Below are positions 13,329 through 55,652 of a DNA stretch of 64,000 bases, in pieces (positions within the stretch are counted from its first letter, which is position 1; each line of letters starts with the position of its first letter). The notes beneath the pieces are model-generated. The model saw nothing but the letters and a program-made list of their open reading frames with translations. It made no database searches and was not told the origin of the DNA. Source of the stretch: Ostreococcus lucimarinus (Eukaryota); the NCBI GenBank assembly GCA_000092065.1, contig CP000583.1; one strand, given 5' to 3'. The translations under genes and the position numbers were made by a program.

Positions 13329-13933
13329 ATGTGGCGTCGCGTCGCGCGCGACGTCGCGAGACGCGCGTCGACGTCGTGCGCGACGTCGTCGTCCGCGCGC
13401 GCGACGGGCGCGACGCGGGGCGTGAGCGCGACGGCGACGTCGAGGGCGAAGGCGAAGGCGAAGGCGAAGGCGAAGGGTAAAGGTGCGTCGAGCGCGGACC
13501 GACGCGCGAGGACGCGCGCGAAGACGCGAGGACGCGCGCGAGGACGCGCGGGATGACGCGCGGGATGACGCGCGCGACGCGCGACTGACGGAGCGACGGC
13601 GGTGTCGAACGACGCGCAGACGGTGAGAAGGCGCAGACGGCGGCGAGCGGCGGCGGCGGCGCGGCGAGCGACACGAAAGTCGTAGGGTTGAATTACTTGA
13701 AAACGGGAAGTGATCCGGAACTCGGGAGCGATGATGCGTATCCGGCGTGGTTGTGGACGCTGTCGGAGGCGAAGGAAAGTTTGGGAGGGTACGAGCGGAG
13801 GATCGCGGCGTTGAAGGCGGAGGGCTTGGATTGGCGCGCAGAGTTTTCGGAGGAGGACGCGAAACGGTATCGGAAACTCGAACGGACGCATCGGATCAGG
13901 GAAAATAACGCGTCGCGCGCGAAGAAATAGCAA
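13329..13933 (+). CDS. MRPL54: mitochondrial ribosomal protein mL54 (two exons: 13329..13482 and 13620..13933)
   Basis: Exon 2 encodes YPAWLWTLSEAKESLGGYERRIAALKAEGLDWRAEFSEEDAKRYRKLERTHRIRENN (mL54 motif YPEWLF...R.YWR.LR). It is not preceded by an in-frame ATG; there is an in-frame TGA at 13586. Exon 1 (MWRRVARDVARRAST...KAKAKGK, mitochondrial presequence) ends with donor GTGCGT at 13483. Branch CTGAC lies 33 nt upstream of acceptor CGCGCAG at 13619. The phase-1 junction recreates an Asp codon. Confidence 0.7.
13483..13619 (+). other. spliceosomal intron (137 nt) of the mL54 gene
   Basis: GTGCGT...CTGAC...CGCGCAG. The interior is built from degenerate GACGCGCG(A/G)G tandem motifs. Confidence 0.65.
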
Positions 13934-13976
13934 TGTTTTGATTATACCGGTATCGTTTGAGCTCGTCGATGCGTGT

Positions 13977-14681
13977 TCACGCGGCGGCGGCGACGGATTC
14001 GGCGGCGGCATCTTCCACGCGCGCGTCCTTCAACCGCGTGGCGTTTTCTTGAACCATCTTCTCCCACTTCAGTTTGTCGTACTCCTCGGGGCTTAAAAAG
14101 TCCGGGTCGGCGTACGAGCGCCAACTCCACATGTGACACTCGCAGCAAATCGTCTCTGACTCAAACTTTTTCTTGCCTCGACACCACGTCTGCGAAAAAT
14201 GATGCTCCTTCGTGTTCGTGGACCCGCACGACAGGCAGTCGGGGAAGCGTTCGTTCGGTTTCCATCGCGAGATCCATTCGTCTACGGTCATAATTTTCAT
14301 CCCAGCTCCGACCGAGGGGTTGATTTCAACGGGGTCGCCTGCGCGCGCAAGCCGGTCAGTCAGCCGTCCCGTCGCGAACGTCGTCGTCGTCGAGGAAGGT
14401 CGCGCGCAAGCTTCTTCATCGAGCGTCGTACCGTTCATGATCTTGCGCCACTCCGTGGCGTGCACGAGTGCCTTCGGATTTGCGTTCACGTCGGTGTAGA
14501 TGTCCGTCTTCAGATCGTCCGCGTACGCGTGCGTCATGTCTTTTTCTTCCTCCTCCTTGGTCGTCGACTTGTCGACATCTTTGGCCCCTCCGGTCGCGCC
14601 GGTCGCGTCTTTGGCCTTGGACGACGCCGCAGCCGACTTCCCGGGCTTCTTCTTACCAGTCTTTTTCGATTTTGGAGGCAT
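13977..14681 (-). CDS. hypothetical Lys-rich protein with C-terminal Cys/His-rich domain
   Basis: First ATG is MPPKSKKTGKKKPGKS (~14681); the track M1 is GTG. C-terminal CLSCGS...HHFSQTWCRGKKKFESETICCECHMWSW is a possible zinc-binding module. No family assigned. Confidence 0.45.
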   Translation of the reverse strand: MPPKSKKTGKKKPGKSAAASSKAKDATGATGGAKDVDKSTTKEEEEKDMTHAYADDLKTDIYTDVNANPKALVHATEWRKIMNGTTLDEEACARPSSTTTTFATGRLTDRLARAGDPVEINPSVGAGMKIMTVDEWISRWKPNERFPDCLSCGSTNTKEHHFSQTWCRGKKKFESETICCECHMWSWRSYADPDFLSPEEYDKLKWEKMVQENATRLKDARVEDAAAESVAAAA

Positions 14682-14816
14682 CGCGACGAGAGACGCGCGC
14701 GCGTGAGTGCGGCGATCTCGAAATGTCCGCGAGAAAAACGCTCGCACCAGCCGTTTTTCACTTCGCTAATAAAATAAATCAAATCACACAGCTACGACCG
14801 AACGAGTCTCACTCGT

Positions 14817-16373: not shown

Positions 16374-16519
16374 CGGTGTCGCGAAATGAACCCATGTCCG
16401 ATTTCTCCCAGTAGAAAAGGTCGAATGATGTTTAAGTTTAAGATAAGAAGTCAACTACATTTTGCGAATCGCGACGACGAAAGGAACGACGGATGCGCGA
16501 GCGACGTTTCGTTACAACG

Positions 16520-19021: not shown

Positions 19022-19170
19022 CGCGCGCGTCGGCCCCCGATTCTTTCGATTCGATTCGTTTCGTTTCGACGCCGCGCGCGCGTGTGCCGCGCGACGGTCG
19101 CGCGCGTCGCGCCGCACTCTCGCGCGCGCGAACGCGCGACGCGCGAACGCGCGACGCGCGCGCGTCGACG

Positions 19171-21076: not shown

Positions 21077-22129
21077 ATGACGTTGCGACTCGTGCTCTTG
21101 GTCCCGTTCAGGGAGGACGCGACGCGAACGCGCGCCGCGCAATTGCGTCAACTCATCGAGCGCTTCGTCGCCGTCTTCGACGACCCGAGCCGCCCCGCGC
21201 TCGTCGTCGTCTGCGAACAGAGCGACGACGGGTGTCGATTCAACCGCGGTCAGTGCTTGAACGCGGCGTACGCGATCGCGACGTCGACGTTCAGCGAGCG
21301 CATCGATCGATGCGGCACGCATTTCGCGTGCCACGACGTCGACATGGCGCCCGAGGCGGCGACGAAGACGGCGTACTTTGTCGAGGACGACGCGCGCGAC
21401 GGCGCCGGATTCGTTCGCGTGTTGCAAGCGAGCGGGTGTCGGTACGACGCCGAGAAATGCTTCGGTGGCGTGACGATTTACGACGTGACGGCGTTTGAGC
21501 GCACGAATGGGTACCCGAACGGATTTTACGGGTGGGGAGGCGAGGATCACGCGGCGTTTTTGCGGGCAGCGGAAGCGGGCGTGCGAGTGGAGCGTCGCTC
21601 GGGCGCCGCGTTTGATGATTTAGAGAAAGACGTGGAGACGGTGGCGAAGAAACTATCCGTGCTCGACGCACACGATGCTCGAATAAACGCCAAGGAGAAG
21701 GAGCGTCTACTGAAACGAAACGCAAAGTTTTGGCGCGAAGACGGCTTGAATTCGTGCGCATTCGACGTCGTCGAGAAAAGCGTGCTGCGCGAATCGCCGG
21801 CGTTGACGTGCGTGCAGTTCAAGGTTGAGTTGAAATGCGCGCGACCTGGGTACATCAAGTGCTTCACGTGCGCGACGTGGCTTCCAGAACCTGAGTATTC
21901 GGGCAAAGCGCTCGCCGCGGTGCGATGGAGCGAGAAAACGGGCACCAAGCACGAACGATCGTGCACGTCGTGTACGGCGAATTTGCCGAAGCAAATCGAA
22001 ACGGAGGCGCAAAAAGCTTTCAATCAGAGCAATTTCGAGCAGAGGCTGACGTGTGCGGAGTGTGCGACGTTGTTTGCGAGCCGCACGTCGTTGTTCAAAC
22101 ATCTCAAATCGTCGCCGTGCGGAAACTAG
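21077..22129 (+). CDS. GT7-like beta-1,4-galactosyltransferase catalytic domain fused to C-terminal Cys/His zinc-finger-like motifs
   Basis: LVLLVPFRED...FNRGQCLNAAY...CHDVDM...FGGVTIYDVTAFERTNGYPNGFYGWGGEDHAAFLR parallels B4GALT (FNRAKLLNVG...DLIPMNDHN...[35 protein letters not shown]). C-terminus has CFTCATW...CTSC and CAECATLFASRTSLFKHLKSSPC (C2H2/C2HC-like). No N-terminal TM anchor. Confidence 0.6.
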   Translation: MTLRLVLLVPFREDATRTRAAQLRQLIERFVAVFDDPSRPALVVVCEQSDDGCRFNRGQCLNAAYAIATSTFSERIDRCGTHFACHDVDMAPEAATKTAYFVEDDARDGAGFVRVLQASGCRYDAEKCFGGVTIYDVTAFERTNGYPNGFYGWGGEDHAAFLRAAEAGVRVERRSGAAFDDLEKDVETVAKKLSVLDAHDARINAKEKERLLKRNAKFWREDGLNSCAFDVVEKSVLRESPALTCVQFKVELKCARPGYIKCFTCATWLPEPEYSGKALAAVRWSEKTGTKHERSCTSCTANLPKQIETEAQKAFNQSNFEQRLTCAECATLFASRTSLFKHLKSSPCGN

Positions 22130-29492: not shown

Positions 29493-31082
29493 CTACGAAT
29501 CGCGCTTCTGTTCGCTGAAAAGCAGCACATACACGTTGCTAATCGCCACAAAGCTCGCGAATAAAATCAGCGCGCCGGCGACGACGACGGTTCCGACTCC
29601 CGGTTTTGCCGCGAAGGACGCGTTCGCATCGTCGCCTGATGGAAGGATGTTACCTTCCTCGTCAAAATCCTGTTCGAGAAGATCGCGAGCGGAACTCAAA
29701 AGTTCCCTCGTGACGTCGTCCAGACCATCGAGCAAATCGTCCGCCGGCTCCTCGACGTCCGCCGCGGCCTTCGACGAGCGCATCTTCGGATGCAGCAAGA
29801 GCAAGGCTGGGATCACGAACATGACGAGACTTCCGCACGTGGCACCGATGAACTCGAATACCTTTCCTAAATCTTCCACCGCGAACGCTACGAGCGTGGT
29901 GAAGACGACGAACGCGAACGTTTGCGTCGCGTGACGAGTCACCGGCGCTTGTCCCGGCGCGCACACCTCCCAACCAAACGCCTCCGCAAGTAAGTCGTCC
30001 AAAGCCGCGCGCGCGGCGTGATGATTCACCGGAAACGATGCGACGGCGCTGAAGCCCATGAAGATTGTCGCCACCATCATGGCTTTGTCATCCTTGCCGT
30101 AGCTATCTAGGACGTTAGACGTCACGTTTGGATGCGACACGTACGCGAACTCGCCCACGAGGAGGTAGCCCCAAAAGCACGCGCCGACGGCGAGCGCGAT
30201 GACGGTGTACATTCGACTGAGGCGTCGCGCCTCGGTGGCTTGCCTAGCGTCGCCATCGATAGGTTCGATGTCGTCTTCGAAATGCGGTTCAGGGGCGGAA
30301 TCTGCCGATAGCTCGGAGAAAATCGCCAAGACTTGAATATGGCACTGAAACGCGAAGACGACGATGGGCACGGCGGAGATGGAATCGGTGTTGAATTTGA
30401 AAGCCACGGCTTTGGCGTCATCACCGCCAGAAGTGCGGGTCATTCCTTTGCACGTGATCGTCGCGGCGGTGTACGCGAGCGAAACCAGGGCTACCGCACT
30501 CGCCGGTGCCAACCGACTCATCTCTCGAAGTAAGCTCAGCGGCGTCACCAAAAACGTCGCTCCGACGGCGATGGCGAATCGTCGACTTCCCCACCACGCG
30601 CTCGACCCCGCGCTGGCGACCGCGCTCATCACTTTCGCGTACGAATCACCGATGATGATCAAATATGCCACGCACGATCCGAACAAGTACACCACCAACG
30701 TCCCGCTCACGAATCGAGACGCGCGAGTTCCGAACGCGTCGCGCACCAAGCCTTGATACGACGTGGACTCGAACGCCGATCCCGCTCGCACGAGCACGAC
30801 GAGCGTGTACGCGACGAGTAGCGCGGCGATGAGTACGACAATTCCACCACCGACGGTGCCGAACTTACTCACCGCGAACGGCGTCGCCAGCACTCCCGCG
30901 CCGATGGCGCAGTTCGCGAGCGTCGCCGTCGACCCGGAGACGTTGCCTCGCCGCTTCGCCCGACCGTCAGTTTCACCGACGAGCGCCGAGCTCGCGAGCG
31001 CGCTCATGGCGCTCGAAATCATGTGCTCGAGCTCGCTCTCGGCGTGCGCGGCGTCGTGCGCGTCCGTGGTGTCGCTCGACAT
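29493..31082 (-). CDS. amino acid transporter (AAAP/Aa_trans family, SLC38-like)
   Basis: 11 TM. N-terminal Aa_trans signature NVSGSTATLANCAIGAGVLATPFAVSKFG. Start at the internal ATG MSSDTTDAHD (~31082); the track ORF extends to 31163. Confidence 0.8.
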   Translation of the reverse strand: MSSDTTDAHDAAHAESELEHMISSAMSALASSALVGETDGRAKRRGNVSGSTATLANCAIGAGVLATPFAVSKFGTVGGGIVVLIAALLVAYTLVVLVRAGSAFESTSYQGLVRDAFGTRASRFVSGTLVVYLFGSCVAYLIIIGDSYAKVMSAVASAGSSAWWGSRRFAIAVGATFLVTPLSLLREMSRLAPASAVALVSLAYTAATITCKGMTRTSGGDDAKAVAFKFNTDSISAVPIVVFAFQCHIQVLAIFSELSADSAPEPHFEDDIEPIDGDARQATEARRLSRMYTVIALAVGACFWGYLLVGEFAYVSHPNVTSNVLDSYGKDDKAMMVATIFMGFSAVASFPVNHHAARAALDDLLAEAFGWEVCAPGQAPVTRHATQTFAFVVFTTLVAFAVEDLGKVFEFIGATCGSLVMFVIPALLLLHPKMRSSKAAADVEEPADDLLDGLDDVTRELLSSARDLLEQDFDEEGNILPSGDDANASFAAKPGVGTVVVAGALILFASFVAISNVYVLLFSEQKRDS

Positions 31083-32954: not shown

Positions 32955-33914
32955 CTACAACGCCTTTTCGCTATCTTCGCCCGGATACGCCTCGACGAAT
33001 CCATCGAGCGTGCTCTGCACGCTCGCGCGGACCTCGGGCGACATTCTGTCGTGGTACAAGACGCCGTCTAAATGGTCGTACTCGTGCTGGAACACGCGCG
33101 CCTCGAACCCTTCGAGGGTCATTTTGAATTTTTTACCCTTCAAGTTTTGCGCTTCGATTTGAACGCCGATCGGGCGCTGCGCGCGTGAATCGAGGAAGAG
33201 CGAAGCGGTCAGTCTCGCGCGACGCAAAATCTCCCGACGCCGACGGCGGCGGCGGCGCGTCAGAGTTAGCCTCGCGTATTAGCTCACATTTCTCCGCACG
33301 ACCCGCACGCGGGTCTCGGATTAGCGTATATTTATGTTTTGATCGTCATCGGCTCTCTCGTCTCGCGCGTGACGCGACAATCGCGCGCGGCGCCGTCGCT
33401 CGATACGCACCTCGACGTCGGCGTACATCTTCGGAAAGCTCAAGCACCCTTCCTCGAACAAATCCTTCTCCTTGGAAAACTTCACTATTTCCGGGTTACA
33501 CAACACCACTTCTCGCCCCTGTCCTGGCTCTCCCGCCTCGTTGTACACCATCATTCGATAATTCACACCCACCTGCGGCGCCGCCAATCCGCAGCCGACG
33601 GTTTCGTACATAATCTTAAACATCGCCTTGCTCAACCGTTCCAAATTTTTATCGAACGTCTCCACGGGCGCGTTCTTCGCCCGCAGGCACTTCGCCGGGT
33701 ACTTCGCGATCGCCAGCGGTTCGCTCCATCGAACGCTCTTCGCGTCCTCGTCGTCGCCCTTCGTCCCCTCGCCCTCGCGACTCAAGTTTTCCACCTCGCC
33801 GAACAAGAAACCCTTCTTCTTCCCGCGCGCGACGACCGCGGCGCCGCGCCGCGTCGTCGTCGTCGTCACCCTCGACGAGCACGACGCCACTTTACACGCG
33901 CACCGCGTCATCAT
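32955..33914 (-). CDS. PDF: peptide deformylase, organellar (two exons: 33412..33914 and 32955..33177)
   Basis: Motif I GCGLAAPQVG and motif II EGCLSFP lie in track ORF 33321..34124. Motif III QHEYDHLDG lies in ORF 32955..33227, in the same frame, with an in-frame stop between them. Donor GAG|GTGCGT and acceptor CGCGCGCAG|CGC join ...YADVE|RPIGVQIEAQ..., restoring the canonical PDF spacing. Start placed at MMTRCACKV (~33914), a transit-peptide-like N-terminus. Confidence 0.8.
33178..33411 (-). other. spliceosomal intron (234 nt) of the PDF gene
   Basis: On the minus strand: GTGCGTATCGAG...GAGACTGACCGCTTCGC...TTCACGCGCGCAG. Length is a multiple of 3 but it contains an in-frame TAA. Confidence 0.75.
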
Positions 33915-34147: not shown

Positions 34148-35170
34148 ATGTTCGCCTCCATCGCCGCCAACGCCTCCGCGGCCGTGCACGCCAAGGTACG
34201 CGCGAACGCGCGAACGCGCGAACGCGCTCGGCGACGCGACGCGTCGTCTCGAGCGACGCCGCGACGGACGCGCGCCGAGCGTCGCGATGGGGTTTCGACG
34301 CGCGCGCGCGATGGGGACGCGGCGCGCGGGGGATGGGACGCGTCGCGCGCGCGCGCGCGCGCGAACGGTCGAGAATAATTTTACGCGCGGTGCGCGCGCG
34401 CGCGATGGAGGATCGCGCGCGCGCGAGGGCGTCGTCGAGGCGCGCGACGACGTCGGATAAACCCCGAGGGCGGGCGAGGGCGAGGCGACGACGCGCGGCG
34501 ATGCCGACGACGACGAGCGAGGGGGGACGACGAGCGCGCGAACGATGACTGACGGATGAATTGTGTTTTCGACATCACGCAGCGCACGCAATTTTCGGGC
34601 GCTTCCGTCAAGCCCGCGCGGGCGGTGACCATGGTGCGTGTCGCGACGGATGCGCGTGGGGTGAATAGGGTTTCCATCGCCCCGAGCGCGCGGAGTCGAG
34701 AACGCGCGAGCGAGCGAGCGTGGTGCGAACGAAGACTGACGAATGCGCGCGGGATCTTTGACGATGAACAGCCCGTCGCGCAACGACGCGGTGATTTGTG
34801 CGTGCGCGCGGCGCGCGTCGCCGGGGTTGAGATTCCAAACAACAAGAGATGCGAGACGGCGTTGACGTACGTGTACGGCATCGGCGAAACGAGCGCCAAG
34901 GCGATCATGGCGGCGACTGGTTTGGAGAACAAGCGTTTGCGTGAATTCTCTGAGCAGGAACTCACGCAATTGCGCGAAGAGGTGGAGAAGTACCAGATTG
35001 AGGGTGAACTCAGACGCTTCATTACGATGAACATCAAGCGCTTGAAGGAGATTCAGTGCCACCGGGGTAAGATGCACATTCGCAACTTGCCGGTGCGTGG
35101 TCAGCGAACCAAGACGAACGCGCGCACGCGCAAGGGTAAGGTTAAGACCGTGGCTGGCAAGAAGAAGTAA
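34148..35170 (+). CDS. RPS13: organellar ribosomal protein uS13 (bacterial type), probably two exons: 34148..34195 and 34583..35170
   Basis: Mature part [37 protein letters not shown]...[36 protein letters not shown] is a full uS13. Proposed exon 1 [16 protein letters not shown] ends at donor GTACGC (34196). CTGAC lies 31 nt upstream of acceptor ACGCAG (34580-34582), and the join is in frame. The alternative unspliced start is ATG 34556. Confidence 0.75.
34196..34582 (+). other. probable spliceosomal intron (387 nt) in the uS13 presequence
   Basis: GTACGC donor, CTGAC branch, CAG acceptor. The first exon is a typical targeting-peptide start. Confidence 0.5.
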
Positions 35171-35332
35171 ATTATCTTGTCAGTAGCGGCGACGGGGAGA
35201 GGAAATTTAGACATTTCGCCTGTATCTGGGGAGCGTTTGTAGTTGGCGCGCGTTCGTAAGTTTTAATCAAACACAATAACGCCATTCTTTAAAACTACGG
35301 ACTATACTATTAATGCCTTGGAAACGAACGCG

Positions 35333-38197: not shown

Positions 38198-38396
38198 CGT
38201 CGATCGTCGACGGGACGGGGTCGAGATCGCGCGTTCGAGACGACGTCGCTCTCGAGTTCGCGCGCCGCGACGCGCGTCGGTGTGTGTCGCGCGTCCCGTC
38301 GAGTCAACAAGTTGTTTGTTGACTCGCGCGAGACACGAACCGTCACGAAAGCGGGCCGAGACGCGTCCAGACGTCGGCGCGAGACACGACGACGCG

Positions 38397-40934: not shown

Positions 40935-40991
40935 CTCCCGATCGCTCGCTTCATCACTCCGTTTCGTCTTCTTCGATTTTGTTGTAACTCC
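40886..40991. repeat. perfect 53-bp tandem duplication spanning the CLC stop codon
   Basis: cgatcgctcgcttcatcactccgtttcgtcttcttcgattttgttgtaactcc x2. The first copy encodes the last 15 codons plus the TAA stop of the CLC gene; the second copy lies in the 3' UTR. Confidence 0.9.
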
Positions 40992-41045
40992 GCCTCGCGA
41001 CTCGCGAAATCCCTCAGTGCGCGCCTCGCCTCGCCGCGGTGTGTC

Positions 41046-41518
41046 ATGAGCACCACGTTCGCCCAACGTTGGTTACGACCGGAGGTGCGTCAAGGCTCGA
41101 GACGACGACCGTGGAGGACGCCGGACGCGTCGCGCGGAGCGCACGGCGCAGAGCGCGTCGTCACCCGTCGTCCGCGCGCGATCTTCGCGCGGCGCCGTAC
41201 CCTAAACGATCACGACGACTGACGACGTCCCGTCCTCGTTCGCGCGCGCAGGTGTACCCGATCTTCGCCGCCATCGGTGGAGCCGTGGGATTGTGTGGAT
41301 TCTTCTGCACCCGCCAACTCGTCGCGAGCCCGGGGTTCACGGCGGCGAAATCTCGACGCATGGCTGGGATCCTCGAGACAAAGGCTGACTTTGACGAAGG
41401 GAAAAATTGGCGCGACCACCGCGTGCGACGATTCCTGCGCTCGATGTACGGCGGTAAAGGACACGGACCGCAAATTTTCCCCGGTTTGAACGAATCTTTC
41501 GGCGGAGGACAACACTAG
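41046..41518 (+). CDS. B12D / NDUFA4-like small mitochondrial membrane protein (two exons: 41046..41084 and 41252..41518)
   Basis: Exon 1 MSTTFAQRWLRPE plus exon 2 VYPIFAAIGGAVGLCGFFCTRQLVASPGF...AGILETKADFDEG...HRVRRFL matches plant B12D (M..RWVRPEVYPLFAA.GVAVGICGF...RAAGVL.N.AEG). Donor GAG|GTGCGT, branch CTGAC, acceptor CGCGCGCAG|GTG. Confidence 0.75.
41085..41251 (+). other. spliceosomal intron (167 nt) of the B12D-like gene
   Basis: GTGCGTCAAGG...GACGACTGACGACG...TTCGCGCGCGCAG. Confidence 0.75.
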
Positions 41519-48414: not shown

Positions 48415-48604
48415 TCGCGCGTCGATCGCCGCGTCGCGGAGTCACGCGTCGAACGTCCTCGCGCGCGTCGACGTCGTTTGATTTGATTAATCAAAAACAT
48501 CCACCCGCGCGGTGGTCGTTCGCCTCGAACGACGCGCGATCGTCATTCGGACGCGCGCGCTCGGTCGTCGACCGCGGGAGCGTCGAGCGCGCGCGACCGC
48601 GGCG

Positions 48605-50134
48605 ATGACTTCGCCGCCTCGATCGGTGTCGCAGGCGCTGTTATCGCCCGTGCGACACGTCCTCGCGAGCTTGCGAACGAACTCGTTCGAAGGCGAACGA
48701 TTCGTCGGCGACGAAGGGGGCGAGGACAAGCGTGAGGAGATATTCGCACGCTTAGAAGCACACGTGGAGAACGGGCTGAAGAAGAACACGCTGAGCGACG
48801 GTGATATCTTTGAGTTGATTCGCTTGACGACGGCGTTCGGGTTAGAGGAAGTAGGGACGTCGAACGCGGGCGCCGCGTTGGAAGCGGCGCGGTACGTGCT
48901 CACGGGGTCGAGCGCGACGGCGACGACGGGAGATTCAGAGGTGTTTCACGCGTCAACGCCCATGAGTGCGAATGGAACGCTCACCGCGCAGCCGTTGTCA
49001 CCGCCTCCGACCGCGACGACGCTCTTGGCGAGAACGGCGTCTGGGGGCGCTCAGACGGCGCCAAACACGCCGCAGCCCGATGACGGAGGTAGAATGGAGT
49101 CTGCGACAACTGCAACTAGTACGATGAGAGACGCTGCTCGCGCGACGAAGTCTTCGTCACTTCGTTCGAAGAGCAAGTCGGCGCTTTCGTCCATCGCCGG
49201 CGCGACTGACGAATCGAAAAAGCCAAAGCCGCGCCGGAGAACCGATGGAGAAACGGTCGAAGATCGTTTGCTCCGCGAGTGGATTCTTAGACAAGCGCGC
49301 GAGTCGGCGCGAATGGAAGAGATACGTCAAGCCGAACTCGCCGCAACCCGAAAAGCAAATTTGACGGGTCGACAGATTATGGAAAGCGTCGAGTCGCTGC
49401 GCGCGCGCGGCGAGGCTAGCCGCAAGCAGCAAGAAGAAGCACGAAAGGCGGCGGAGGCGAGCGCACGTCGACTCGCGATGCGGAGTGTGTCGGCGCACAT
49501 CGGTAAGAAGACTCGGGAACTCACAGCGAAGATGCCCGACTTTTCTTCGCGCCAACAGAGATTTGCGTCAAAGGCGGCGGAACGCGCGGAGCAACGACGT
49601 CGGGAAGCCGAAGAAGAAAAACGAGCCAAAGAAATGGTTGATGTTTCTGGAGAGCGCGTGCCCATGACGAACCGAGCGGCGCAGACGCATAGAACGCTTG
49701 AAGACCTTCAGGCGTGGAACGATCGCAGAGAAGAGAAAATCCGTAGCGCCAAGGCGAAGAAGGAGCAGGAAGAATTGCACGGGGCGACTTTCGCGCCGGT
49801 GTTGGATCAAAGGTCGCTACGCATGGCGCTGAAGAAGCGCATGGCGCTGAAAAAGTCACGCGAGGACTTCGCGACGTCAATAAATCATGAGCGTGACGCC
49901 GATGACGCCCGCCACCCATTTACGCCGCGTCTCGTTTCTCGACAACGTGAGACTCCGAGAGATGTCGTGCTCGAGCGACTGTATAGCGCGTCAAAATCGA
50001 CGCAAAAGAAGTCGGCCACGCCGGATAGAACTCCGCGCGAACACTGGGGTGGCTACGGCGTCGACGACGATCACCCAGACGCTGACGCGGGGGCGTCGGG
50101 GTTCATCTCGCTCGCCGAGCTCGACAGAGAGTAA
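48605..50134 (+). CDS. hypothetical charged/coiled-coil protein
   Basis: ATG at 48605 (MTSPPRSVSQALL). Codon usage is consistent with neighbouring genes. Long K/E/R-rich helical segments. No recognisable domain. Confidence 0.45.
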   Translation: MTSPPRSVSQALLSPVRHVLASLRTNSFEGERFVGDEGGEDKREEIFARLEAHVENGLKKNTLSDGDIFELIRLTTAFGLEEVGTSNAGAALEAARYVLTGSSATATTGDSEVFHASTPMSANGTLTAQPLSPPPTATTLLARTASGGAQTAPNTPQPDDGGRMESATTATSTMRDAARATKSSSLRSKSKSALSSIAGATDESKKPKPRRRTDGETVEDRLLREWILRQARESARMEEIRQAELAATRKANLTGRQIMESVESLRARGEASRKQQEEARKAAEASARRLAMRSVSAHIGKKTRELTAKMPDFSSRQQRFASKAAERAEQRRREAEEEKRAKEMVDVSGERVPMTNRAAQTHRTLEDLQAWNDRREEKIRSAKAKKEQEELHGATFAPVLDQRSLRMALKKRMALKKSREDFATSINHERDADDARHPFTPRLVSRQRETPRDVVLERLYSASKSTQKKSATPDRTPREHWGGYGVDDDHPDADAGASGFISLAELDRE

Positions 50135-50335
50135 ACGTAATACTGGTACATGTTATTTAAGACGTTTCGTTTCATCGATCATTCGCGTTGACGAGGTACA
50201 GGTAGACCGTAATCGTCGGGTCGGGTCCATGAGTCAAGAATGCCCATCCGACTATCGTCTTGAGTCATGAGCAGTAAACAGTCACGATGTGTGCTGCCTC
50301 GTCAAAACCGCGCGCGCGCGTGACGCGCGTTCCCG

Positions 50336-50995
50336 ATGCGCGCGTCGTGCGCGAGTACCCACGTCGGTGAAGTCGCGTGTTCGTCCTCGCGCGACACCGC
50401 GCGCACGAGCCGCGTTCGCGCGCCGCGCGCGTATTCGCGCGCGTGCGTCGAGCGTCGAGCGTCGAGCGTCGTCGCCCTAACCACCGCGCGTCGTGCTTCG
50501 GCGCTCATCGTCGGCGCCGTGGGCGACGAAGACGACGACGCGCGCGCACCGCGTCGCCGCCGCCGCCATCACCGCCGGGATGTCTCGACGTCGGCGATGA
50601 GCGATGTCGTGGCGAGCGGGGACGACGACGACGACGACGGGTCCTCGCGACTGGGCCAAACGCGCGTGCAACGCGCGGTCGATTCGTTGCGAACGAAGAC
50701 CTGGCGCAGGGCGAAGAAGAACTTTAAAAAGCTGCCTCTGGCGTTGATTTCTCTGCTGGTCGGATTTTCCGTGTGTGCGCTGCTACCTCATCCCGAAAGC
50801 CCGCAAGACGCGTTCATTTCGTTCACCATAATCTTGCTCGCCGAGTTCGCCTCGAGCGTGCTCTACGGCGACGAAAACCAAGGCGGGATTTTGCGTTGGG
50901 TTCGCGAGGGCGATTGGCTACCGACGGTTTTAAATTGCTTCAAGATTGGTGTTTTATACGGTTTATTCTGCGATGGTTTCAAAGTCGGGTCGTGA
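50336..50995 (+). CDS. Ycf20-like (DUF565) small plastid membrane protein
   Basis: ATG at 50336. Transit-peptide-like N-terminus, then KKLPLALISLLVGFSVCALL...EFASSVLYG, resembling Ycf20 (KLPVKILFFLVGFYCATAF...EGISLLLYRG). Confidence 0.45.
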   Translation: MRASCASTHVGEVACSSSRDTARTSRVRAPRAYSRACVERRASSVVALTTARRASALIVGAVGDEDDDARAPRRRRRHHRRDVSTSAMSDVVASGDDDDDDGSSRLGQTRVQRAVDSLRTKTWRRAKKNFKKLPLALISLLVGFSVCALLPHPESPQDAFISFTIILLAEFASSVLYGDENQGGILRWVREGDWLPTVLNCFKIGVLYGLFCDGFKVGS

Positions 50996-51098
50996 ACGCG
51001 AACGAGCCTAGTCATTTGCAACGTCAACGTCAACGTAACGTCGACGAAAAATTCTGTAGCTCTCCTCGCGTCGCCGCCGCCTCGCCCGCACATCGACG

Positions 51099-51743
51099 AT
51101 GTCTTCCGAGCCCTCGACGTCGGGCAGGATCGCAATCGATGTCACCGCGCGCGAGGACTTACACGCATGCATTCGTCGCGCGAGCTCGCACCCCGACGTC
51201 GATCGCGACGTGCGCGAACGATGCGTCGAGGCGTTGAAGGACGCGCACGCGCGCGGTGTGGATTACGACGTCGTCTTCGACGCGTGCGATGCGTTGCGAG
51301 CGATCGGCGACGGCGAAAACGTGCCGAGCGTGCGCGCGGTGCTCACGCTCGCGAACATTCGCTTCGAAGTCGTTCGCGAGCGCGAGGAGCTGACCGAGGA
51401 GGAGAAGGAGGCGAGGCGAGCGCACCGCGAGCTCATGGCGACGCTGCGAGACGTCGTCGAGGCACGCGCGTTCGCGAAGATGACGTGCGATGTGGATCGC
51501 ACTCGAGGATCAGACCGCTCGTCTCCGATGGGATTTAAGGCGGATACGCGCGCGTTTGGGTTCGCCGCGCACGTGCTGACCGTCATGTTCGCCTTCGCGT
51601 GCGCGGGATACGTCGGCGGCGGCGCGTTGGAGCGCGGCGGCGCGAATCCCGCGTGGGCGCGAGGGCTGTGCGCCGCCCTCGGCGCCGCTCTCGGGCTCAC
51701 GGTAGAGGCAGGATTGATGATTTTACGCGAAGGTCGCGTGTAG
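51099..51743 (+). CDS. hypothetical protein with C-terminal transmembrane hairpin
   Basis: 214-aa ORF with typical codon usage. Soluble acidic N-domain and two C-terminal TM helices (FGFAAHVLTVMFAFACAGYVGGG; GLCAALGAALGLTVEAGLMIL). Confidence 0.4.
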   Translation: MSSEPSTSGRIAIDVTAREDLHACIRRASSHPDVDRDVRERCVEALKDAHARGVDYDVVFDACDALRAIGDGENVPSVRAVLTLANIRFEVVREREELTEEEKEARRAHRELMATLRDVVEARAFAKMTCDVDRTRGSDRSSPMGFKADTRAFGFAAHVLTVMFAFACAGYVGGGALERGGANPAWARGLCAALGAALGLTVEAGLMILREGRV

Positions 51744-51757
51744 TTAAAATGTAGAAG

Positions 51758-52519
51758 CTAGTCGCCGCCCAATCTGCGCCCTTGCCCCGCGAAGTATCGC
51801 TGTCGAGGCGGTTGCACGACGTTTGAAGCGGCGCTCACCACTCCGTTTCCGCTATTGATGTAATCCGCGAGTGCGTGCACAAACTTCGGCGTTTGGATGA
51901 TCGATCGTCGCCCGCTGTGTAGTGGGTACAGGCGCGCGAAGAAGTAATACGCGTGCCCGACGATAATGCCCAAGAAATCAGGCATCGGGTCGCCTCCCAT
52001 GAGCGCCGTCATCACGAGCATGGCCCAGGGAAAATAAAACGCGCCCACGCGCACGATTCCCATCAACGATACCCTCGCCCGCGGGTGCTCTCGACTCCAC
52101 AAGTACAGGCACATGAAAATTAAGCTATCGCCGTAGAACGCTTGCGCGATCGACGGCACGACGAGCTCGAGCGGCGTCAACGCGCACGCGCCGAAGAGGA
52201 GAAACGCGATATAATCCGCCGTCCCGCTCGCGCCCGTGAACGCCTCCTTCTCGAGCGACACCGAGTACTGCGCGATCATCACCATGCGCATCGCGAACCC
52301 TAAGCTCAGCTTCCCCAAAAACGCAAAGTTCGTCAGCAATCGCCACGGTTGAAACTTCCCGCCCTTGGCGAGTGAAATCATTCGCCACGACAGCATCATC
52401 GCGCGCGGGTCGACGAATTTCGCGTGGAACCCGAGCGTGCTCAGCGCGCAGGACGTGAACCAAAACTTTGATATCGGCGGCAGCGCGGCGTACCACGCCT
52501 GCGGGGAATCCGCGGACAT
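51758..52519 (-). CDS. Derlin (Der1-like ERAD component)
   Basis: [30 protein letters not shown]...[11 protein letters not shown]...SLEKE is the Der1 signature. Four TM segments. Confidence 0.85.
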
Positions 52520-52673
52520 CACGCGCGGGCCTCGACGAAATCGAGTCGCAATCAACCCAAATCACGAAATCAATCGCGTCGCCGTGTGCCGCGGCTGCGC
52601 GGCCGCGATGGGCGAGCGCGAGATCGCGACGCGTTCGTCGTCGCGCGTCCGTCGTCGTCCGTCGACGACAGCG

Positions 52674-53711
52674 ATGATGCGTCGAACGTCGATCAAGTCG
52701 TTGATCGAGCGCGCGAGCGCGGCGAGCGCGGCGAGCGCGGTCGCGCGCGCGGCGCGCGCGGCGTTCACGTCGTCGTCAACGGCATCGGTGCGCGCATCGT
52801 CGTCGTCGCACGCCGACTCGCCGGCGGTGTTCGTCGACAAGAACACGCGCGTGATAGTGCAAGGGTTCACGGGCAAGAATGGCACGTTTCACAGCGAACA
52901 GGCGATCGCGTACGGGACGCAAGTCGTGGGCGGGGTGACGCCGCGCAAGGGCGGAACGACGCACTTGAATCTGCCCGTGTTCGACACCGTGCGAGAGGCG
53001 AAAGAGAGCACGAAAGCCAACGCGAGCGTGATTTATGTCCCACCACCGTTCGCGGCGCGGGCGGTGATGGAGGCCATAGAGGCGGAAGTCGAGCTCGTCG
53101 TGTGCATCACGGAGGGGATTCCGCAACACGACATGGTGCGAGTCAAACAGGCGCTGATGTCGCAAAGCAAAACGCGATTGATCGGGCCGAACTGCCCGGG
53201 AATCATCAAACCCGGCGAGTGTAAGATTGGAATCATGCCTGGATACATTCACAAGCCAGGACGCGTGGGCGTGGTTTCACGAAGCGGGACGTTGACGTAC
53301 GAGGCGGTGTATCAGACGACCGTCGCGGGACTCGGGCAGAGCACATGCGTGGGGATCGGGGGCGACCCTTTCAACGGCACTAATTTCGTCGATTGTCTGG
53401 AGAAGTTCGTCAAGGATCCGCAGACGGAAGGCATCATCATGATCGGCGAGATCGGCGGCACCGCGGAAGAGGAAGCGGCGGAGTTTATTCGCGCGAGCGG
53501 TACCGAAAAGCCGATTGTATCCTTCATCGCGGGGCTCACCGCACCCCCAGGCAGGCGTATGGGTCACGCCGGAGCGATCATATCAGGCGGTAAGGGTAGC
53601 GCAGGCGATAAAATCGCCGCGCTCGAACGCGTCGGCGTTCGCGTCGTCAAGTCGCCGGCGAAGATGGGCCAGGCGATGTACGAAATGTTTGGCGAACGAA
53701 ACATGCTGTAA
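52674..53711 (+). CDS. succinyl-CoA ligase alpha subunit, mitochondrial
   Basis: ATG at 52674 ([15 protein letters not shown], presequence). [39 protein letters not shown], active-site His region [17 protein letters not shown]. Confidence 0.9.
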
Positions 53712-53843
53712 ACTAATTCTGGTTGATATCGGTCGTCGACGCCGCTGTTACGCGACACTGCACTACTCTACGCGCTACTTGCTTGATAATACTATACTTA
53801 CGCTTGCGTGCCTACGTGCGTACCGACGGACTTTGCGACGATT

Positions 53844-54902
53844 TCACGCGCACGCCGCCACGGCGTCGATGGGCTCGCGTCTTCGCTCAAGAAACTCGCG
53901 CATGGCCGTGCTTCGCGAACGCAACGGCACGTGACAGCACCGCTGATACATGGATCTGTGCAGGCCGAACTGCCGCCGAACGTCAGCCACCGTTGCGCCC
54001 GCCTCGCGTTTGATCCACGCCTTTGTGGTGATGTCGAGCACGAACATCACCCAGTGCGTCCACGCGAAACATACGAAACCAATGACATGCGCGCCCGACA
54101 GGGCGCACGCGAGTAACATGTAAGGCCACGCCGTAGAACGCCACGCATTCTTGGACATCTTCGCGAGCGAATACGCCGCTACAATAAATATGAGAACTCC
54201 CATCGCTGCGCCGCTCGTCAAGAGGGCCAGAAACCAACTATGGTTGTACTCACCGACGCAGTTCCCGATCACGCCGCAGTGATGGTCGAACCTTCGCACG
54301 CACACGTTGCATGTCGCGCAGTGCGTCGCCATCGGCGGTCGCCAGAGTTGGCACGTGACGCAAAACTTTAACCTCGCGTCGTCGTTCGTCGCGCTCGTTT
54401 CGGTTAGAGCTCGTCGCGTCCACGCGCCGCCGAAATCTCGATCCATGCCCCAAGAGCGCGCTTCGGCGTCTTCTTCGACGGCATCGATGACGCACTGTCT
54501 AAGTCTATCGCTGTACGATGGGCACTTGTCCCCGCTTTTGCTCTCCTCGCTCGTCGCTTCCGCCTTGACGCGCGTCGCCTCGTCGAGGCGCTTCACGCAC
54601 GCCGCCGCGCGGTCGTCCTCTGCCGTCGGTACGACGATCCCCGGGTCGCTCGCGCGCGTCATCCACGCGCACACTAACGCGCACACCGCCGTGACCAAGA
54701 TCGCGCTCTGCCAAATCCATCGGCGAAGCCCGAATTCGTCCTTCGTCGCGTCGTCCAGGGCGTTGTCTTCGTCACCAATCCACAGCGCGATCGACGCGCT
54801 CGCGGCGAGCGAGGCGAAGGCGACGATGCACAGCGCGAGAGAGCGACACGCGGCGCGTTCTCTCGCTCTCGCGCGCGAGCGCGACGCGCGCGAGGCATCC
54901 AT
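53844..54902 (-). CDS. DHHC-type protein S-acyltransferase
   Basis: ATG at 54900-54902 (MDASRASRSR). DHHC-CRD: CVTCQLWRPPMATHCATCNVCVRRFDHHCGVIGNCVGEYN, flanked by four TM helices. Confidence 0.85.
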   Translation of the reverse strand: MDASRASRSRARARERAACRSLALCIVAFASLAASASIALWIGDEDNALDDATKDEFGLRRWIWQSAILVTAVCALVCAWMTRASDPGIVVPTAEDDRAAACVKRLDEATRVKAEATSEESKSGDKCPSYSDRLRQCVIDAVEEDAEARSWGMDRDFGGAWTRRALTETSATNDDARLKFCVTCQLWRPPMATHCATCNVCVRRFDHHCGVIGNCVGEYNHSWFLALLTSGAAMGVLIFIVAAYSLAKMSKNAWRSTAWPYMLLACALSGAHVIGFVCFAWTHWVMFVLDITTKAWIKREAGATVADVRRQFGLHRSMYQRCCHVPLRSRSTAMREFLERRREPIDAVAACA

Positions 54903-54980
54903 GTCGACTGTACGACAGCCTGTGCGGCGAACGCGGCGCACCGACCGACGACGTCGTCCGCACTGCGACGCGCGCGAAAG

Positions 54981-55652
54981 ATGACGACGACGACGACGAC
55001 GACGACCAAGGCGTCGACGACCAAGGCGACGACCAAGGCGACGGCGACCAAGACGGCGCAGCGCCCCGTCGCGACGCGCGCGGCGCCGGCGAATGCGACG
55101 AAGCAGGTGCGGCGCGCCGAACGCCACCGGACACCGAGCGACTGACTCTATCCACTCGCGCAGGCGAGCGCCGAGTTCGAAGCGCCGAATCAGTACGGAT
55201 ACTTCCCGTCCGCGATCGAGGCCGCGAGGAAGAAACGCGCGACGCAAACTGGGTTCGACAAGCAAGTCAAGATGACGAAGGCGGAGCAAAAAGAACGTTT
55301 CAGCTCGCTGTGCTCGAAGCATCCCGAGCTGCAAAAGTGCAGAGACGACTACGTGTCGCCGCTTCGGGTGAAACCGTCGACGCAGAGCGTCATCAACGGA
55401 AGCGTCGTGCGCAGCGATGGTATCATTTTAGTGCCCGGGAATAAGGATGACTTGGTGACGTGGGCGCTCGATCCCGCCATGTCCGGCGACACGCTCGGAT
55501 TGTTGCTCCCGACGCTCTTCATCATCATCGGCGCGCAGCTCAAGCAAGCCGCGGGGGTGCCGGAGTACGTCTCTGGCGCGGTCGGGGTGACGACCAAGCT
55601 CATAGCCACCGGTCTCGTCGCGTTGTACTGGGTGCCAAACTTTGTGAACTAA
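54981..55652 (+). CDS. small organelle-targeted two-TM membrane protein of unknown family (two exons: 54981..55106 and 55164..55652)
   Basis: Exon 1 MTTTTTTTKASTTKATTKATATKTAQRPVATRAAPANATKQ (transit-peptide-like, (ACG)7 run) ends at donor CAG|GTGCGG. 57-nt intron with CTGAC branch and CGCGCAG acceptor. Exon 2 continues in frame through the track ORF 55272..55652, which has a C-terminal hydrophobic pair (LGLLLPTLFIIIGAQL; LIATGLVALYWVPNF). Confidence 0.6.
55107..55163 (+). other. short spliceosomal intron (57 nt)
   Basis: GTGCGGCGCGCC...GAGCGACTGACTCTATCCACTCGCGCAG. Confidence 0.65.

What the first reader, a model, noticed from the sequence alone, without database searches (positions are those of the whole stretch)
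13483..55163. Shared intron signature (GTGCG[TG]...CTGAC...(C)GCAG) reveals five introns the ORF track breaks
Five genes are truncated or split in the six-frame track but become canonical when spliced: mL54 (13483-13619), PDF (33178-33411), uS13 (34196-34582), B12D-like (41085-41251) and a small membrane protein (55107-55163). Four donors are GTGCGT/GTGCGG and one is GTACGC. Every intron has CTGAC 20-35 nt upstream of the 3' AG, and three acceptors are the identical heptamer CGCGCAG. Splicing restores conserved motifs across junctions (PDF YADVE|RPIG; B12D RPE|VYPIF; mL54 phase-1 join). In four of the five genes the first exon encodes only an N-terminal organellar targeting presequence, so the presequence and mature domain sit on separate exons. 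The mL54 intron interior is a run of degenerate GACGCGCG(A/G)G tandem motifs, so some of these introns may be repeat-derived.
Basis: partly seen in the sequence, partly recalled or inferred. Interest (0 to 1): 0.65.

Follow-up and report, generated by a model that had tools for sequence, protein, structure and literature searches.

The report
Ordinary Ostreococcus spliceosomal introns, known signature
The five gaps are real spliceosomal introns of the tiny green alga Ostreococcus lucimarinus, and their shared GTGCGT / GACTGAC / CAG signature is the intron consensus already published for this genome, so the finding is correct but ordinary.

Summary
The window is Ostreococcus lucimarinus CCE9901 nuclear DNA. 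All five proposed introns are present; the PDF interval is one base off (true 33177-33410, minus strand). Four are removed at exactly the proposed junctions in RNA-derived public assemblies: mL54, PDF, uS13 intron 1 and the 57-nt intron. Three give products identical to RefSeq models: B12D, the small protein and PDF. B12D has no transcript proof, but its exon-1 peptide and intron position are conserved as far as Bathycoccus.

The signature is the published consensus for O. lucimarinus introns outside chromosome 2 (Irimia & Roy 2008): 5' site GTGCGTG, ACTGAC in 87% and GACTGACG in 66% of EST-confirmed introns.

The loose three-part pattern is not enriched over shuffles (9 vs 8.3). The extended GACTGAC box does discriminate: 8 copies in the window, 7 of them in introns.

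One is uS13 intron 2 (34634-34771). The other is an in-frame 93-nt intron (14339-14431, minus) that RefSeq translates as coding.

The introner or repeat-derived idea is not supported. The presequence-exon claim fails for B12D.

By-products: uS13 intron 2 matches O. tauri Ot-HAsno33, and the PDF intron holds an 85-nt C/D-like RNA conserved to Bathycoccus.

The parts
13329..13482 (+). mL54 exon 1 (51 codons plus 1 nt; basic, Ala/Ser/Thr-rich N-terminus ending in AKAKAKAKGK)
   Evidence: Spliced ORF. The AKAKAKG motif is shared with full-length transcript-derived homologues P0040-P0042.
13483..13619 (+). mL54 intron, 137 nt, phase 1: G|GTGCGT ... GACTGACG ... CGCGCAG
   Evidence: The exact 30-mer junction 13482|13620 is present in RNA-derived Logan contigs L014, L015 and L016; L013 retains the intron. 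An orthologous intron sits at the same place in L006.
13620..13930 (+). mL54 exon 2 (Pfam Ribosomal_L37/mL54 domain)
   Evidence: PF08561, 6.4e-15, residues 68-150.
14339..14431 (-). 93 nt, phase 1, in frame and stop-free: G|GTACGA ... GGCTGACTGAC ... CGCGCAG. RefSeq XP_001417097.1 translates it as coding.
   Evidence: The unspliced 234-aa product equals the RefSeq model. The spliced 203-aa product is P0139 in Logan. The exact junction is in four RNA-derived contigs, L013-L016. Relatives carry -6/+5 nt indels or an unalignable interior.
33411..33914 (-). PDF (organellar peptide deformylase) exon 1: N-terminal extension plus about two thirds of the catalytic domain, ending in YADVE
   Evidence: The 240-aa product from the second Met is identical to XP_001417104.1.
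33177..33410 (-). PDF intron, 234 nt, phase 0: G|GTGCGT ... GACTGACC ... CGCGCAG.
   Evidence: The exact 50-mer junction is in L001. The position is the same in Bathycoccus, YAEVE|RPMGV.
33269..33353 (-). 85-nt conserved RNA element inside the PDF intron. It is C/D-box-like: GCC-GAUGA ... a 25-nt invariant stretch AAAACAUAAAUAUACGCUAAUCCGA ... internal hairpin ... CGCGA-GGC.
   Evidence: Conserved in L008, L009 and Bathycoccus L011/L012 while the rest of the intron is not. The terminal stem and internal hairpin covary. Its position matches the unclassified O. tauri Ot-mncR68. Its 5' half resembles Ot-CDsno7. No Rfam hit.
32955..33176 (-). PDF exon 2 (RPIGVQ ... HEYDH ... stop)
34148..34195 (+). 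uS13 exon 1 (16 codons)
34196..34582 (+). uS13 intron 1, 387 nt, phase 0: G|GTACGC ... GACTGACG ... CACGCAG
Evidence: The exact 50-mer junction is in L001, L002 and L003.
   Evidence: Conserved in L008 and L009.
138 nt, phase 0, in frame and stop-free: G|GTGCGT ... GACTGACG ... GAACAG. It is the orthologue of the O. tauri intron annotated as the H/ACA snoRNA Ot-HAsno33.
   Evidence: Spliced in L001, retained in L002 and L003. The 165-aa product is in Logan. The L009 intron is near-identical to the published Ot-HAsno33 sequence, whose host gene is ostta03g05760, ribosomal protein S13.
34772..35170 (+). uS13 exon 3 (bacterial-type S13 domain)
   Evidence: PF00416, 5.7e-28.
41046..41084 (+). B12D/NDUFA4-like exon 1 (MSTTFAQRWLRPE), part of the conserved domain and not a presequence
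   Evidence: The Pfam match starts at residue 9. QRWLRPE is conserved in Bathycoccus P0136 and in L008.
41085..41251 (+). B12D intron, 167 nt, phase 0: G|GTGCGT ... GACTGACG ... CGCGCAG
   Evidence: The spliced 101-aa product is identical to XP_001416807.1. An intron sits at the same position in L008, L009 and Bathycoccus L011 with a diverged interior. No transcript contig was found.
41252..41518 (+). B12D exon 2
54981..55106 (+). Small membrane protein exon 1 (42 codons, Thr/Lys/Ala-rich)
55107..55163 (+). 57-nt intron, phase 0, with an in-frame TGA: G|GTGCGG ... GACTGACT ... CGCGCAG
   Evidence: The product is identical to XP_001416814.1. The junction GCGACGAAGCAG|GCGAGCGCCGAG is in RNA-derived contig L007.
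55164..55652 (+). Small membrane protein exon 2
   Evidence: Homologues cover about 76-88% of the protein.

Best explanation
These are canonical U2-type (GT-AG) spliceosomal introns of the nuclear genome of Ostreococcus lucimarinus. They belong to the 'canonical' intron class found on all chromosomes except the low-GC outlier region of chromosome 2.

This genome is intron-poor, and its few remaining introns carry near-invariant signals. The 5' site is G|GTGCGT (variants GTGCGG, GTACGC, GTACGA). The branch box is GACTGAC(G), 17-32 nt from the 3' end. The acceptor is YAG, usually GCAG.

Splicing joins short 5' exons to the main coding exon, so a six-frame ORF view shows truncated or split genes.

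Shown here: the boundaries and motifs; removal from mature RNA for six of the seven introns in the window; identity of the products to public models for three genes; and conservation of intron position in relatives.

Inferred from established spliceosome biology: the branch box pairs with the GUAGUA element of U2 snRNA (the O. tauri U2 carries GUGUAGUA) through one G-U pair and a bulged A, and the uniform signals reflect the known co-evolution of low intron number with strong splice signals.

Two of the introns, PDF and uS13 intron 2, also appear to host small stable RNAs. That may explain why they persist and why they are the two introns left in some transcript assemblies. This last point is inference.
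For: Organism. Exact matches to O. lucimarinus CCE9901 RefSeq proteins on a 982,987-bp contig.

Transcript-derived Logan contigs with exact junctions:
- PDF, uS13 intron 1 and uS13 intron 2 in L001; uS13 intron 1 also in L002 and L003.
- The 57-nt intron in L007.
- mL54 in L014-L016, and the 14339-14431 intron in L013-L016.

Pfam matches run across the junctions.

All seven introns carry GACTGAC. They account for 7 of the 8 GACTGAC and 7 of the 11 ACTGAC in 128 kb of strand sequence.

Conserved positions with diverged interiors in L006, L008, L009 and Bathycoccus L011.

Literature. Irimia & Roy 2008 (PMC2483917) report that 87.2% of EST-confirmed introns outside chromosome 2 contain ACTGAC, 66.5% contain GACTGACG, and the 5' consensus is GTGCGTG. 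Verhelst et al. 2013 (PMC3879977) report that Micromonas canonical introns favour AG|GTGCGT and NCTGAC and are 5'-biased. The O. tauri U1 and U2 sequences come from PMC7671301.
Against: No transcript contig was found for the B12D junction. Exact-junction scans of the metagenome collection found nothing for either the B12D or the mL54 junction.

The B12D intron is open in the exon-2 frame, so an unspliced 159-aa GTG-start ORF exists.

Some assemblies keep the PDF intron, uS13 intron 2 (L002, L003) and the mL54 intron (L013), so splicing is not complete in every assembled molecule.

The loose signature regex alone has no statistical power in this GC-rich sequence.
Confidence: 0.95

Rival explanations
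1. Some of these introns are introner-like or repeat-derived. On this view they are copies of a mobile or tandem-repeat element that inserted recently into genes, which would explain the shared ends.
For: The mL54 intron interior is a degenerate tandem array: period 12, 6.6 copies, 80% matches. mL54 and uS13 intron 1 share 77% identity over 70 nt. A short introner class with a GACTGACG branch box (IE-C) exists in Micromonas RCC299.
Against: The similarities between introns are CG-rich low complexity. The same segments also match exons and spacers elsewhere in the window at comparable scores, for example at 13083, 19125, 26940 and 62618. mL54 exon 1 is just as repetitive.

Intron positions are shared with divergent Ostreococcus (mL54, uS13, B12D, PDF) and with Bathycoccus (B12D, PDF), while the interiors are unalignable. 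That is the pattern of old introns, not new insertions.

The shared ends are simply the species' splice consensus.
Confidence: 0.03
2. The motifs co-occur by chance and the genes are not spliced. Each gene would use a downstream in-frame start, for example uS13 from ATG 34556 or the small protein from ATG 55272, and the upstream 'exons' would be non-coding.
For: The three-part regex is found as often in shuffled sequence as in the window: 9 sites against 8.3. ORFs starting downstream exist: 34556-35170 and 55272-55652.
Against: Exact spliced junctions occur in independent RNA-derived assemblies from several sequencing runs. ATG 34556 lies inside the excised uS13 intron 1. mL54 has no in-frame ATG in exon 2 ahead of the conserved domain. 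The PDF catalytic domain is split by its intron.
Confidence: 0.01
3. For B12D only: the real product is the unspliced 159-aa ORF (GTG 41039 to 41518), or an exon-2-only protein, and the RefSeq spliced model is a prediction artefact.
For: The intron is open in the exon-2 frame. Prokaryote-style gene callers report 88-, 135- and 159-aa products for this locus. No transcript contig with the junction was recovered.
Against: The exon-1 peptide QRWLRPE, fused directly to VYPIF, is present in the Bathycoccus protein P0136. The Pfam B12D profile starts in exon 1. The interval between is unalignable and differs in length in L008, L009 and L011, yet keeps GT..CTGAC..AG.
Confidence: 0.04

Closest known systems
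Canonical (non-chromosome-2) spliceosomal introns of Ostreococcus lucimarinus, as described by Irimia & Roy 2008, PLoS Genet 4:e1000148
   Same: Same species. Same atypical 5' consensus GTGCGT(G). Same ACTGAC / GACTGACG branch box close to the 3' end. GT-AG boundaries and low intron density.
   Different: Nothing of substance. Donor variants GTACGC, GTACGA and GTGCGG fall within the expected spread. One acceptor is ACAG, and one branch box is 17-18 nt rather than about 30 nt from the 3' end in the two shortest introns.
Canonical introns of Micromonas and other Mamiellophyceae (Verhelst et al. 2013, Genome Biol Evol 5:2393)
   Same: Donor AG|GTGCGT, branch motif NCTGAC, few introns per gene, and a bias towards the 5' end of genes.
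   Different: In Micromonas the branch motif is reported 43-52 nt upstream of the acceptor. Here the branch A lies 17-32 nt from the 3' end.
Introner elements of Micromonas (IE-A to IE-D)
   Same: They are spliceosomal introns in a related alga. The IE-C class carries the same GACTGACG branch box.
   Different: Introners are multi-copy families with conserved interiors, located at positions not shared between strains. The introns here have unique interiors and positions conserved across genera.
Intron-hosted snoRNAs of Ostreococcus tauri (Bousquet et al. 2020, NAR Genom Bioinform 2:lqaa080): Ot-HAsno33, Ot-mncR68 and Ot-CDsno7
   Same: uS13 intron 2 is the orthologue of the intron annotated as Ot-HAsno33 in the O. 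tauri RPS13 gene. The PDF-intron element lies where the unclassified Ot-mncR68 maps, and its 5' half resembles Ot-CDsno7.
   Different: Ot-HAsno33 is an orphan with very few reads, and I could not recover a convincing H/ACA fold. The PDF-intron RNA lacks a canonical CUGA D box, has no identified target and has no Rfam match.

Membership tests
U2-type spliceosomal intron, O. lucimarinus canonical (non-chromosome-2) class | GT...AG boundaries on the coding strand | tested here: met
   All five claimed introns and both extra ones. The PDF interval needs a 1-nt shift.
U2-type spliceosomal intron, O. lucimarinus canonical (non-chromosome-2) class | Strong 5' splice site matching GTGCGT(G) | tested here: met
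   GTGCGT in four of the seven; GTGCGG, GTACGC and GTACGA once each; G at position -1 in all seven.
U2-type spliceosomal intron, O. lucimarinus canonical (non-chromosome-2) class | ACTGAC / GACTGACG branch box near the 3' end | tested here: met
   GACTGAC in 7 of 7, with the branch A 17-32 nt from the 3' end. These are 7 of the 11 ACTGAC in the window.
U2-type spliceosomal intron, O. lucimarinus canonical (non-chromosome-2) class | Precise removal from mature RNA | tested here: met
   Exact junctions in RNA-derived contigs for 6 of 7 introns. B12D has no transcript and rests on the RefSeq model and conservation.
U2-type spliceosomal intron, O. lucimarinus canonical (non-chromosome-2) class | Location outside the low-GC, intron-dense outlier region of chromosome 2 | tested here: met
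   Window GC is 0.57-0.69 throughout. About 12 kb covered by transcript contigs contains no further introns. The orthologous O. tauri loci are on chromosome 3.
Introner elements / repeat-derived introns | Interior sequence similarity among many introns (a multi-copy family) | tested here: not met
   Only CG-rich low-complexity matches, which also hit exons and spacers. Tested within this window only, not genome-wide.
Introner elements / repeat-derived introns | Positions not shared with related strains or species (recent gain) | tested here: not met
   Positions are shared with L006, L008 and L009, and for B12D and PDF with Bathycoccus.
Box C/D snoRNA (for the 85-nt PDF-intron element) | Terminal stem bringing the 5' and 3' ends together | tested here: met
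   AGCC/GGCU, UGCC/GGCA and GGCC/GGCU, with a compensatory change. Only four sequences were available.
Box C/D snoRNA (for the 85-nt PDF-intron element) | C box RUGAUGA and D box CUGA next to the terminal stem | tested here: inconclusive
   The C-like box is CGAUGA(G), or UGUGAG in L008. The 3' box is GCGA, not CUGA. A CUGA 10 nt further downstream occurs only in the window sequence.
Box C/D snoRNA (for the 85-nt PDF-intron element) | Antisense element of at least 10 nt to rRNA or snRNA placed upstream of D or D' | not testable with these tools
   A 25-nt invariant stretch sits upstream of a CCGA D'-like box. Its longest complementarity to O. tauri U1-U6 and U3 is 8 nt. No Ostreococcus rRNA sequence was available.
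Box C/D snoRNA (for the 85-nt PDF-intron element) | Accumulates as a stable small RNA | tested here: inconclusive
   Coordinates and spacing match Ot-mncR68 of O. tauri: 89 nt, minus strand, 1186 nt from Ot-HAsno33 against 1191 nt in L009. Its sequence is not printed in the paper's supplement, and read counts are very low.
H/ACA snoRNA (for uS13 intron 2) | Two hairpins, an H box (ANANNA) and ACA 3 nt from the 3' end | tested here: inconclusive
   It is the orthologue of the intron published as Ot-HAsno33, and the intron ends in ...GAACAG. The consensus fold of three orthologues is weak, and Ot-HAsno33 is listed as an orphan.

The most novel reading that the evidence does not exclude
The most novel reading that remains open concerns the by-products, not the signature.

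(a) The 85-nt element in the PDF intron could be a previously unclassified k-turn or C/D-like small RNA. It would be conserved from Ostreococcus to Bathycoccus, carry a 25-nt invariant guide-like stretch, and have an unknown target. It probably corresponds to the unclassified Ot-mncR68.

(b) The species' intron signature could be used to find in-frame, stop-free introns that current annotations translate as protein. Two such introns occur in this 64-kb window alone: 14339-14431, which RefSeq XP_001417097.1 translates as coding, and uS13 intron 2, for which no public O. lucimarinus model was checked.
Probability: 0.5. Interest if true: 0.3.

Novelty: already known. Interest (0 to 1): 0.15.

Why it matters
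It matters little as a discovery. The signature has been the textbook description of introns in this genome since 2008, and three of the five gene models are already in RefSeq.

It has practical value for annotation. The GACTGAC box is specific enough to flag introns that ORF-based or ab initio callers miss. In this window it exposes a 31-residue false insertion in a RefSeq protein (XP_001417097.1) and a missed micro-exon in uS13.

The conserved RNA in the PDF intron adds one candidate to the intron-hosted small RNAs of Mamiellales. It also offers a simple reason why this intron survives in a genome under strong pressure to lose introns.

Tried and rejected
1. Exact-junction scans of the JGI metagenome collection for the mL54 and B12D junctions found nothing. 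mL54 was later settled through Logan contigs that carry its neighbouring gene.

A look-up through the neighbouring SET-domain protein returned only a genomic JGI contig.

3. Rfam found no family in the window at gathering thresholds. At permissive thresholds it gave only low-complexity (CG)n hairpin hits to miRNA models in uS13 intron 1. I treat these as noise.

4. I first read the conserved GAATAGGGTTT block in uS13 intron 2 as a plant 'telo-box'. I dropped that when the whole intron turned out to be the published Ot-HAsno33 locus.

5. U6 snRNA (the AGAUUAGC region) as a target of the PDF-intron RNA: only 7 contiguous pairs, so rejected.

6. Scans of the prokaryote genome and viral collections for the 25-mer of that RNA found nothing.

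7. Other ACTGAC or GACTGAC sites at 49205 (+), 35184 (-), 30971 (-) and 21254 (-). The site at 49205 is in frame inside a long ORF, and the only donor-like site I saw upstream would shift the frame if spliced. The site at 21254 lies antisense to the long ORF 21077-22129 (+), which I took to be the gene. The site at 35184 is antisense to the uS13 stop-codon region. The site at 30971 was not examined. I treat all four as chance.

8. I did not attempt a full intron census of the window.

Full report
SOURCE AND OBSERVATION

The window is GC-rich (0.57-0.69) and densely packed with ORFs. Spliced translations of two of the proposed genes are identical, residue for residue, to Ostreococcus lucimarinus CCE9901 RefSeq proteins on a 982,987-bp contig. 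These are B12D/NDUFA4-like XP_001416807.1 and the uncharacterised protein XP_001416814.1. The spliced PDF product, taken from its second Met, is identical to XP_001417104.1, 'Peptide deformylase, organellar'. The window is therefore nuclear DNA of this picoalga.

All five intervals begin with GT and end with AG on the coding strand. The PDF interval is one base too high: the true intron is 33177-33410 on the minus strand.

Every intron has the longer box GACTGAC. The heptamer CGCGCAG closes four of the five introns, not three.

Splicing gives products with clean Pfam matches that run across the junctions:
- mL54: PF08561, 6e-15.
- PDF: PF01327, 4e-53, as a single stretch.
- uS13: PF00416, 6e-28.
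- B12D: PF06522, 1e-13, starting in exon 1.

The tandem motif in the mL54 intron is real (period 12, 6.6 copies).

IS IT MORE THAN CHANCE?

The loose three-part pattern is not. GTGCG[TG]...CTGAC...CAG marks 9 acceptor sites in the window, against 8.3 +/- 2.9 in dinucleotide-preserving shuffles. CGCGCAG is a common word here (45 observed, 52.8 expected).

The branch box is what discriminates. CTGAC is depleted overall (58 against 107.6 +/- 9.1). ACTGAC occurs only 11 times on both strands, and 7 of those are intron branch boxes. GACTGAC occurs 8 times, 7 in introns. The eighth copy, at 49205, is in frame inside a long ORF, and the only donor-like site I saw upstream would shift the frame if spliced.

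DIRECT EVIDENCE OF SPLICING

Public Logan assemblies of sequencing runs contain contigs that are collinear with the window except for clean deletions of exactly these intervals. I take these contigs to be RNA-derived for that reason.

- L001 (SRR28369099) carries exact 50-mer junctions for the PDF intron, uS13 intron 1 and a second uS13 intron.
- L002 and L003 carry the uS13 intron 1 junction.
- L007 (SRR28369097) is collinear with 49983-55667 except for the 57-nt intron, and it contains the junction GCGACGAAGCAG|GCGAGCGCCGAG.
- For mL54, the exact spliced protein was not on record. Contigs found through the neighbouring convergent gene settle it: L014, L015 and L016, from three different runs, contain the exact 30-mer 13482|13620, while L013 keeps the intron.
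- B12D is the only one of the five without a transcript. The evidence for it is the RefSeq model, the Pfam profile starting at residue 9 in exon 1, and comparative data. The exon-1 peptide QRWLRPE is fused to VYPIF in the Bathycoccus protein. An intron sits at the same codon in two other Ostreococcus lineages and in Bathycoccus, with unalignable interiors of different length.

uS13 has a second intron at 34634-34771: GTGCGT...GACTGACG...AACAG. It is 138 nt, in frame and free of stops, so the ORF track does not break. It is spliced in L001 and retained in L002 and L003. The N-terminal extension of uS13 is therefore spread over three exons.

A seventh intron lies at 14339-14431 on the minus strand: GTACGA...GGCTGACTGAC...CGCGCAG. 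It is 93 nt, in frame and free of stops.
- RefSeq XP_001417097.1 (234 aa) translates it as protein.
- Close relatives carry -6 and +5 nt indels inside it, and a more distant Ostreococcus has an unalignable interior between perfectly conserved flanks.
- The spliced 203-aa product is on record in Logan, and four RNA-derived contigs from four runs carry the exact junction.

The RefSeq protein therefore contains a 31-residue false insertion.

WHAT IT IS AND HOW IT WORKS

These are ordinary U2-type spliceosomal introns of the 'canonical' Mamiellophyceae class.

The signature is already published for this very species. Irimia & Roy 2008 report that 87.2% of EST-confirmed O. lucimarinus introns outside chromosome 2 contain ACTGAC, that 66.5% contain GACTGACG, and that the 5' boundary has 'the atypical consensus GTGCGTG' (PMC2483917). 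Verhelst et al. 2013 report AG|GTGCGT and NCTGAC for Micromonas canonical introns, and a bias of these introns towards the 5' end of genes (PMC3879977).

By inference from standard spliceosome biology, the branch box pairs with the GUAGUA element of U2 snRNA, leaving a bulged A. The O. tauri U2 has GUGUAGUA and its U1 starts AUACUUACCUG. ACUGAC then fits U2 with one G-U pair, while GUGCGU leaves a mismatch to U1 at position +4. That mismatch is why the 5' consensus is called atypical.

The uniformity of the signals is the known pattern of intron-poor genomes. The 5' position of most of these introns is also the known pattern. In coding nucleotides, they fall at:
- B12D: 39 of 306.
- uS13: 48 and 99 of 498.
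- Small protein: 126 of 615.
- mL54: 154 of 465.
- The 14-kb gene: 250 of 612.
- PDF: 504 of 726.

SIDE CLAIMS

Presequence on its own exon. This is plausible for mL54, uS13 and the small protein, whose exon-1 peptides are basic or hydroxylated, poor in acidic residues, and not conserved in homologues. No targeting predictor was available. The claim is wrong for B12D, whose exon 1 is part of the conserved domain. A simpler account is the general 5' bias of surviving introns.

Repeat-derived or introner-like. This is not supported.
- Similarity between introns is CG-rich low complexity, and the same segments match exons and spacers elsewhere.
- mL54 exon 1 is as repetitive as its intron.
- Intron positions are shared across Ostreococcus lineages and, for B12D and PDF, with Bathycoccus.

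This test covers only the window, not the genome.

BY-PRODUCTS

1. The intron of the O. tauri-like contig L009 that is orthologous to uS13 intron 2 is almost identical to the published sequence of Ot-HAsno33. That RNA is an intronic H/ACA candidate hosted in ostta03g05760, 'Ribosomal protein S13' (PMC7671301). It is listed as an orphan with few reads, and my three-sequence consensus fold is weak. I therefore regard its H/ACA status as unproven. The ACA just before the 3' splice site would explain the odd AACAG acceptor.

2. Inside the PDF intron lies an 85-nt element at 33269-33353 on the minus strand. It is far better conserved than the rest of the intron, and it is present in the PDF intron of Bathycoccus.
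- It includes a 25-nt invariant run, AAAACATAAATATACGCTAATCCGA.
- It has a terminal stem with a compensatory change, a C-box-like GAUGA, a CCGA D'-like box and an internal hairpin that covaries.
- Its 5' half resembles Ot-CDsno7, with an alignment score of 35 against 14.2 +/- 2.1 for shuffles.
- Its location and spacing match the unclassified O. tauri RNA Ot-mncR68.
- It lacks a canonical CUGA D box, has no Rfam match, and shows no complementarity of 10 nt or more to O. tauri snRNAs or U3.
- rRNA could not be tested.

The two introns left in some transcript assemblies, apart from mL54 in L013, are exactly these two. That fits stable intron-derived RNA, but it is only an inference.

VERDICT

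The core interpretation is right. The signature and the biology are already known. The introner idea is not supported.

The useful residue is practical. The GACTGAC box finds in-frame introns that annotation misses, and one candidate conserved intronic small RNA deserves a target search.

Noticed in passing
It is 138 nt, in frame and stop-free. It is spliced in L001 but retained in L002 and L003. It is the orthologue of the O. tauri intron published as the orphan H/ACA candidate Ot-HAsno33. The ACA just before the 3' splice site may explain its unusual AACAG acceptor.
   Followed up: yes
window 14339-14431 (-), in the gene at 13977-14681: A 93-nt in-frame, stop-free intron with the full signature. 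RefSeq XP_001417097.1 translates it as 31 extra residues. Four RNA-derived contigs from four sequencing runs show it spliced out.
   Followed up: yes
window 33269-33353 (-), inside the PDF intron; also L008 ~763-847, L009 2434-2518, L011 ~13968-14058: An 85-nt C/D-box-like RNA element with a 25-nt invariant stretch, conserved from Ostreococcus to Bathycoccus. It probably corresponds to the unclassified O. tauri RNA Ot-mncR68, and its 5' half resembles Ot-CDsno7. The target is unknown.
   Followed up: partly
window 40886-40991 (+): A perfect 53-nt tandem duplication (2.0 copies, 100% identity). It spans the stop codon of the CLC-channel ORF (37506-40934) and runs into the spacer before B12D.
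   Followed up: partly
whole window, both strands: CTGAC is about twofold depleted relative to dinucleotide shuffles (58 against 107.6 +/- 9.1), and ACTGAC likewise (11 against 20.8). This could reflect avoidance of TGA-containing words in dense coding sequence, selection against stray branch sites, or both. The two were not separated.
   Followed up: no
proteins P0019, P0045 and P0061: Ostreococcus proteins more than 90% identical to window genes are deposited in NCBI as '[bacterium]' (MDA9599379.1, MDA9627158.1, MDA9599364.1). Picoeukaryote contigs appear to have been binned into bacterial MAGs.
   Followed up: no
protein P0039: A Logan-derived copy of mL54 exon 2 whose residue differences from the window appear, by eye, to be mostly the kind that C-to-T changes would give (for example R->W, P->L, H->Y, A->V). 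It looks like an assembly of bisulfite-converted reads rather than a real variant.
   Followed up: no
L002 ~5060-5090 versus window ~38750: The strain behind contig SRR6824979_6403 carries an in-frame extra GRGVFSK repeat in the N-terminal region of the CLC-channel protein, relative to the window.
   Followed up: no
window 34339-34421 (+), inside uS13 intron 1: A long (CG)n-rich palindromic hairpin gives weak sub-threshold hits to several unrelated miRNA models in Rfam. I judged this a low-complexity artefact.
   Followed up: partly
window 13285-13329: The start codons of mL54 (13329, +) and of the divergent 531-aa ORF (11690-13285, -) are only 44 nt apart. Their promoters and 5' UTRs must overlap.
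   Followed up: no
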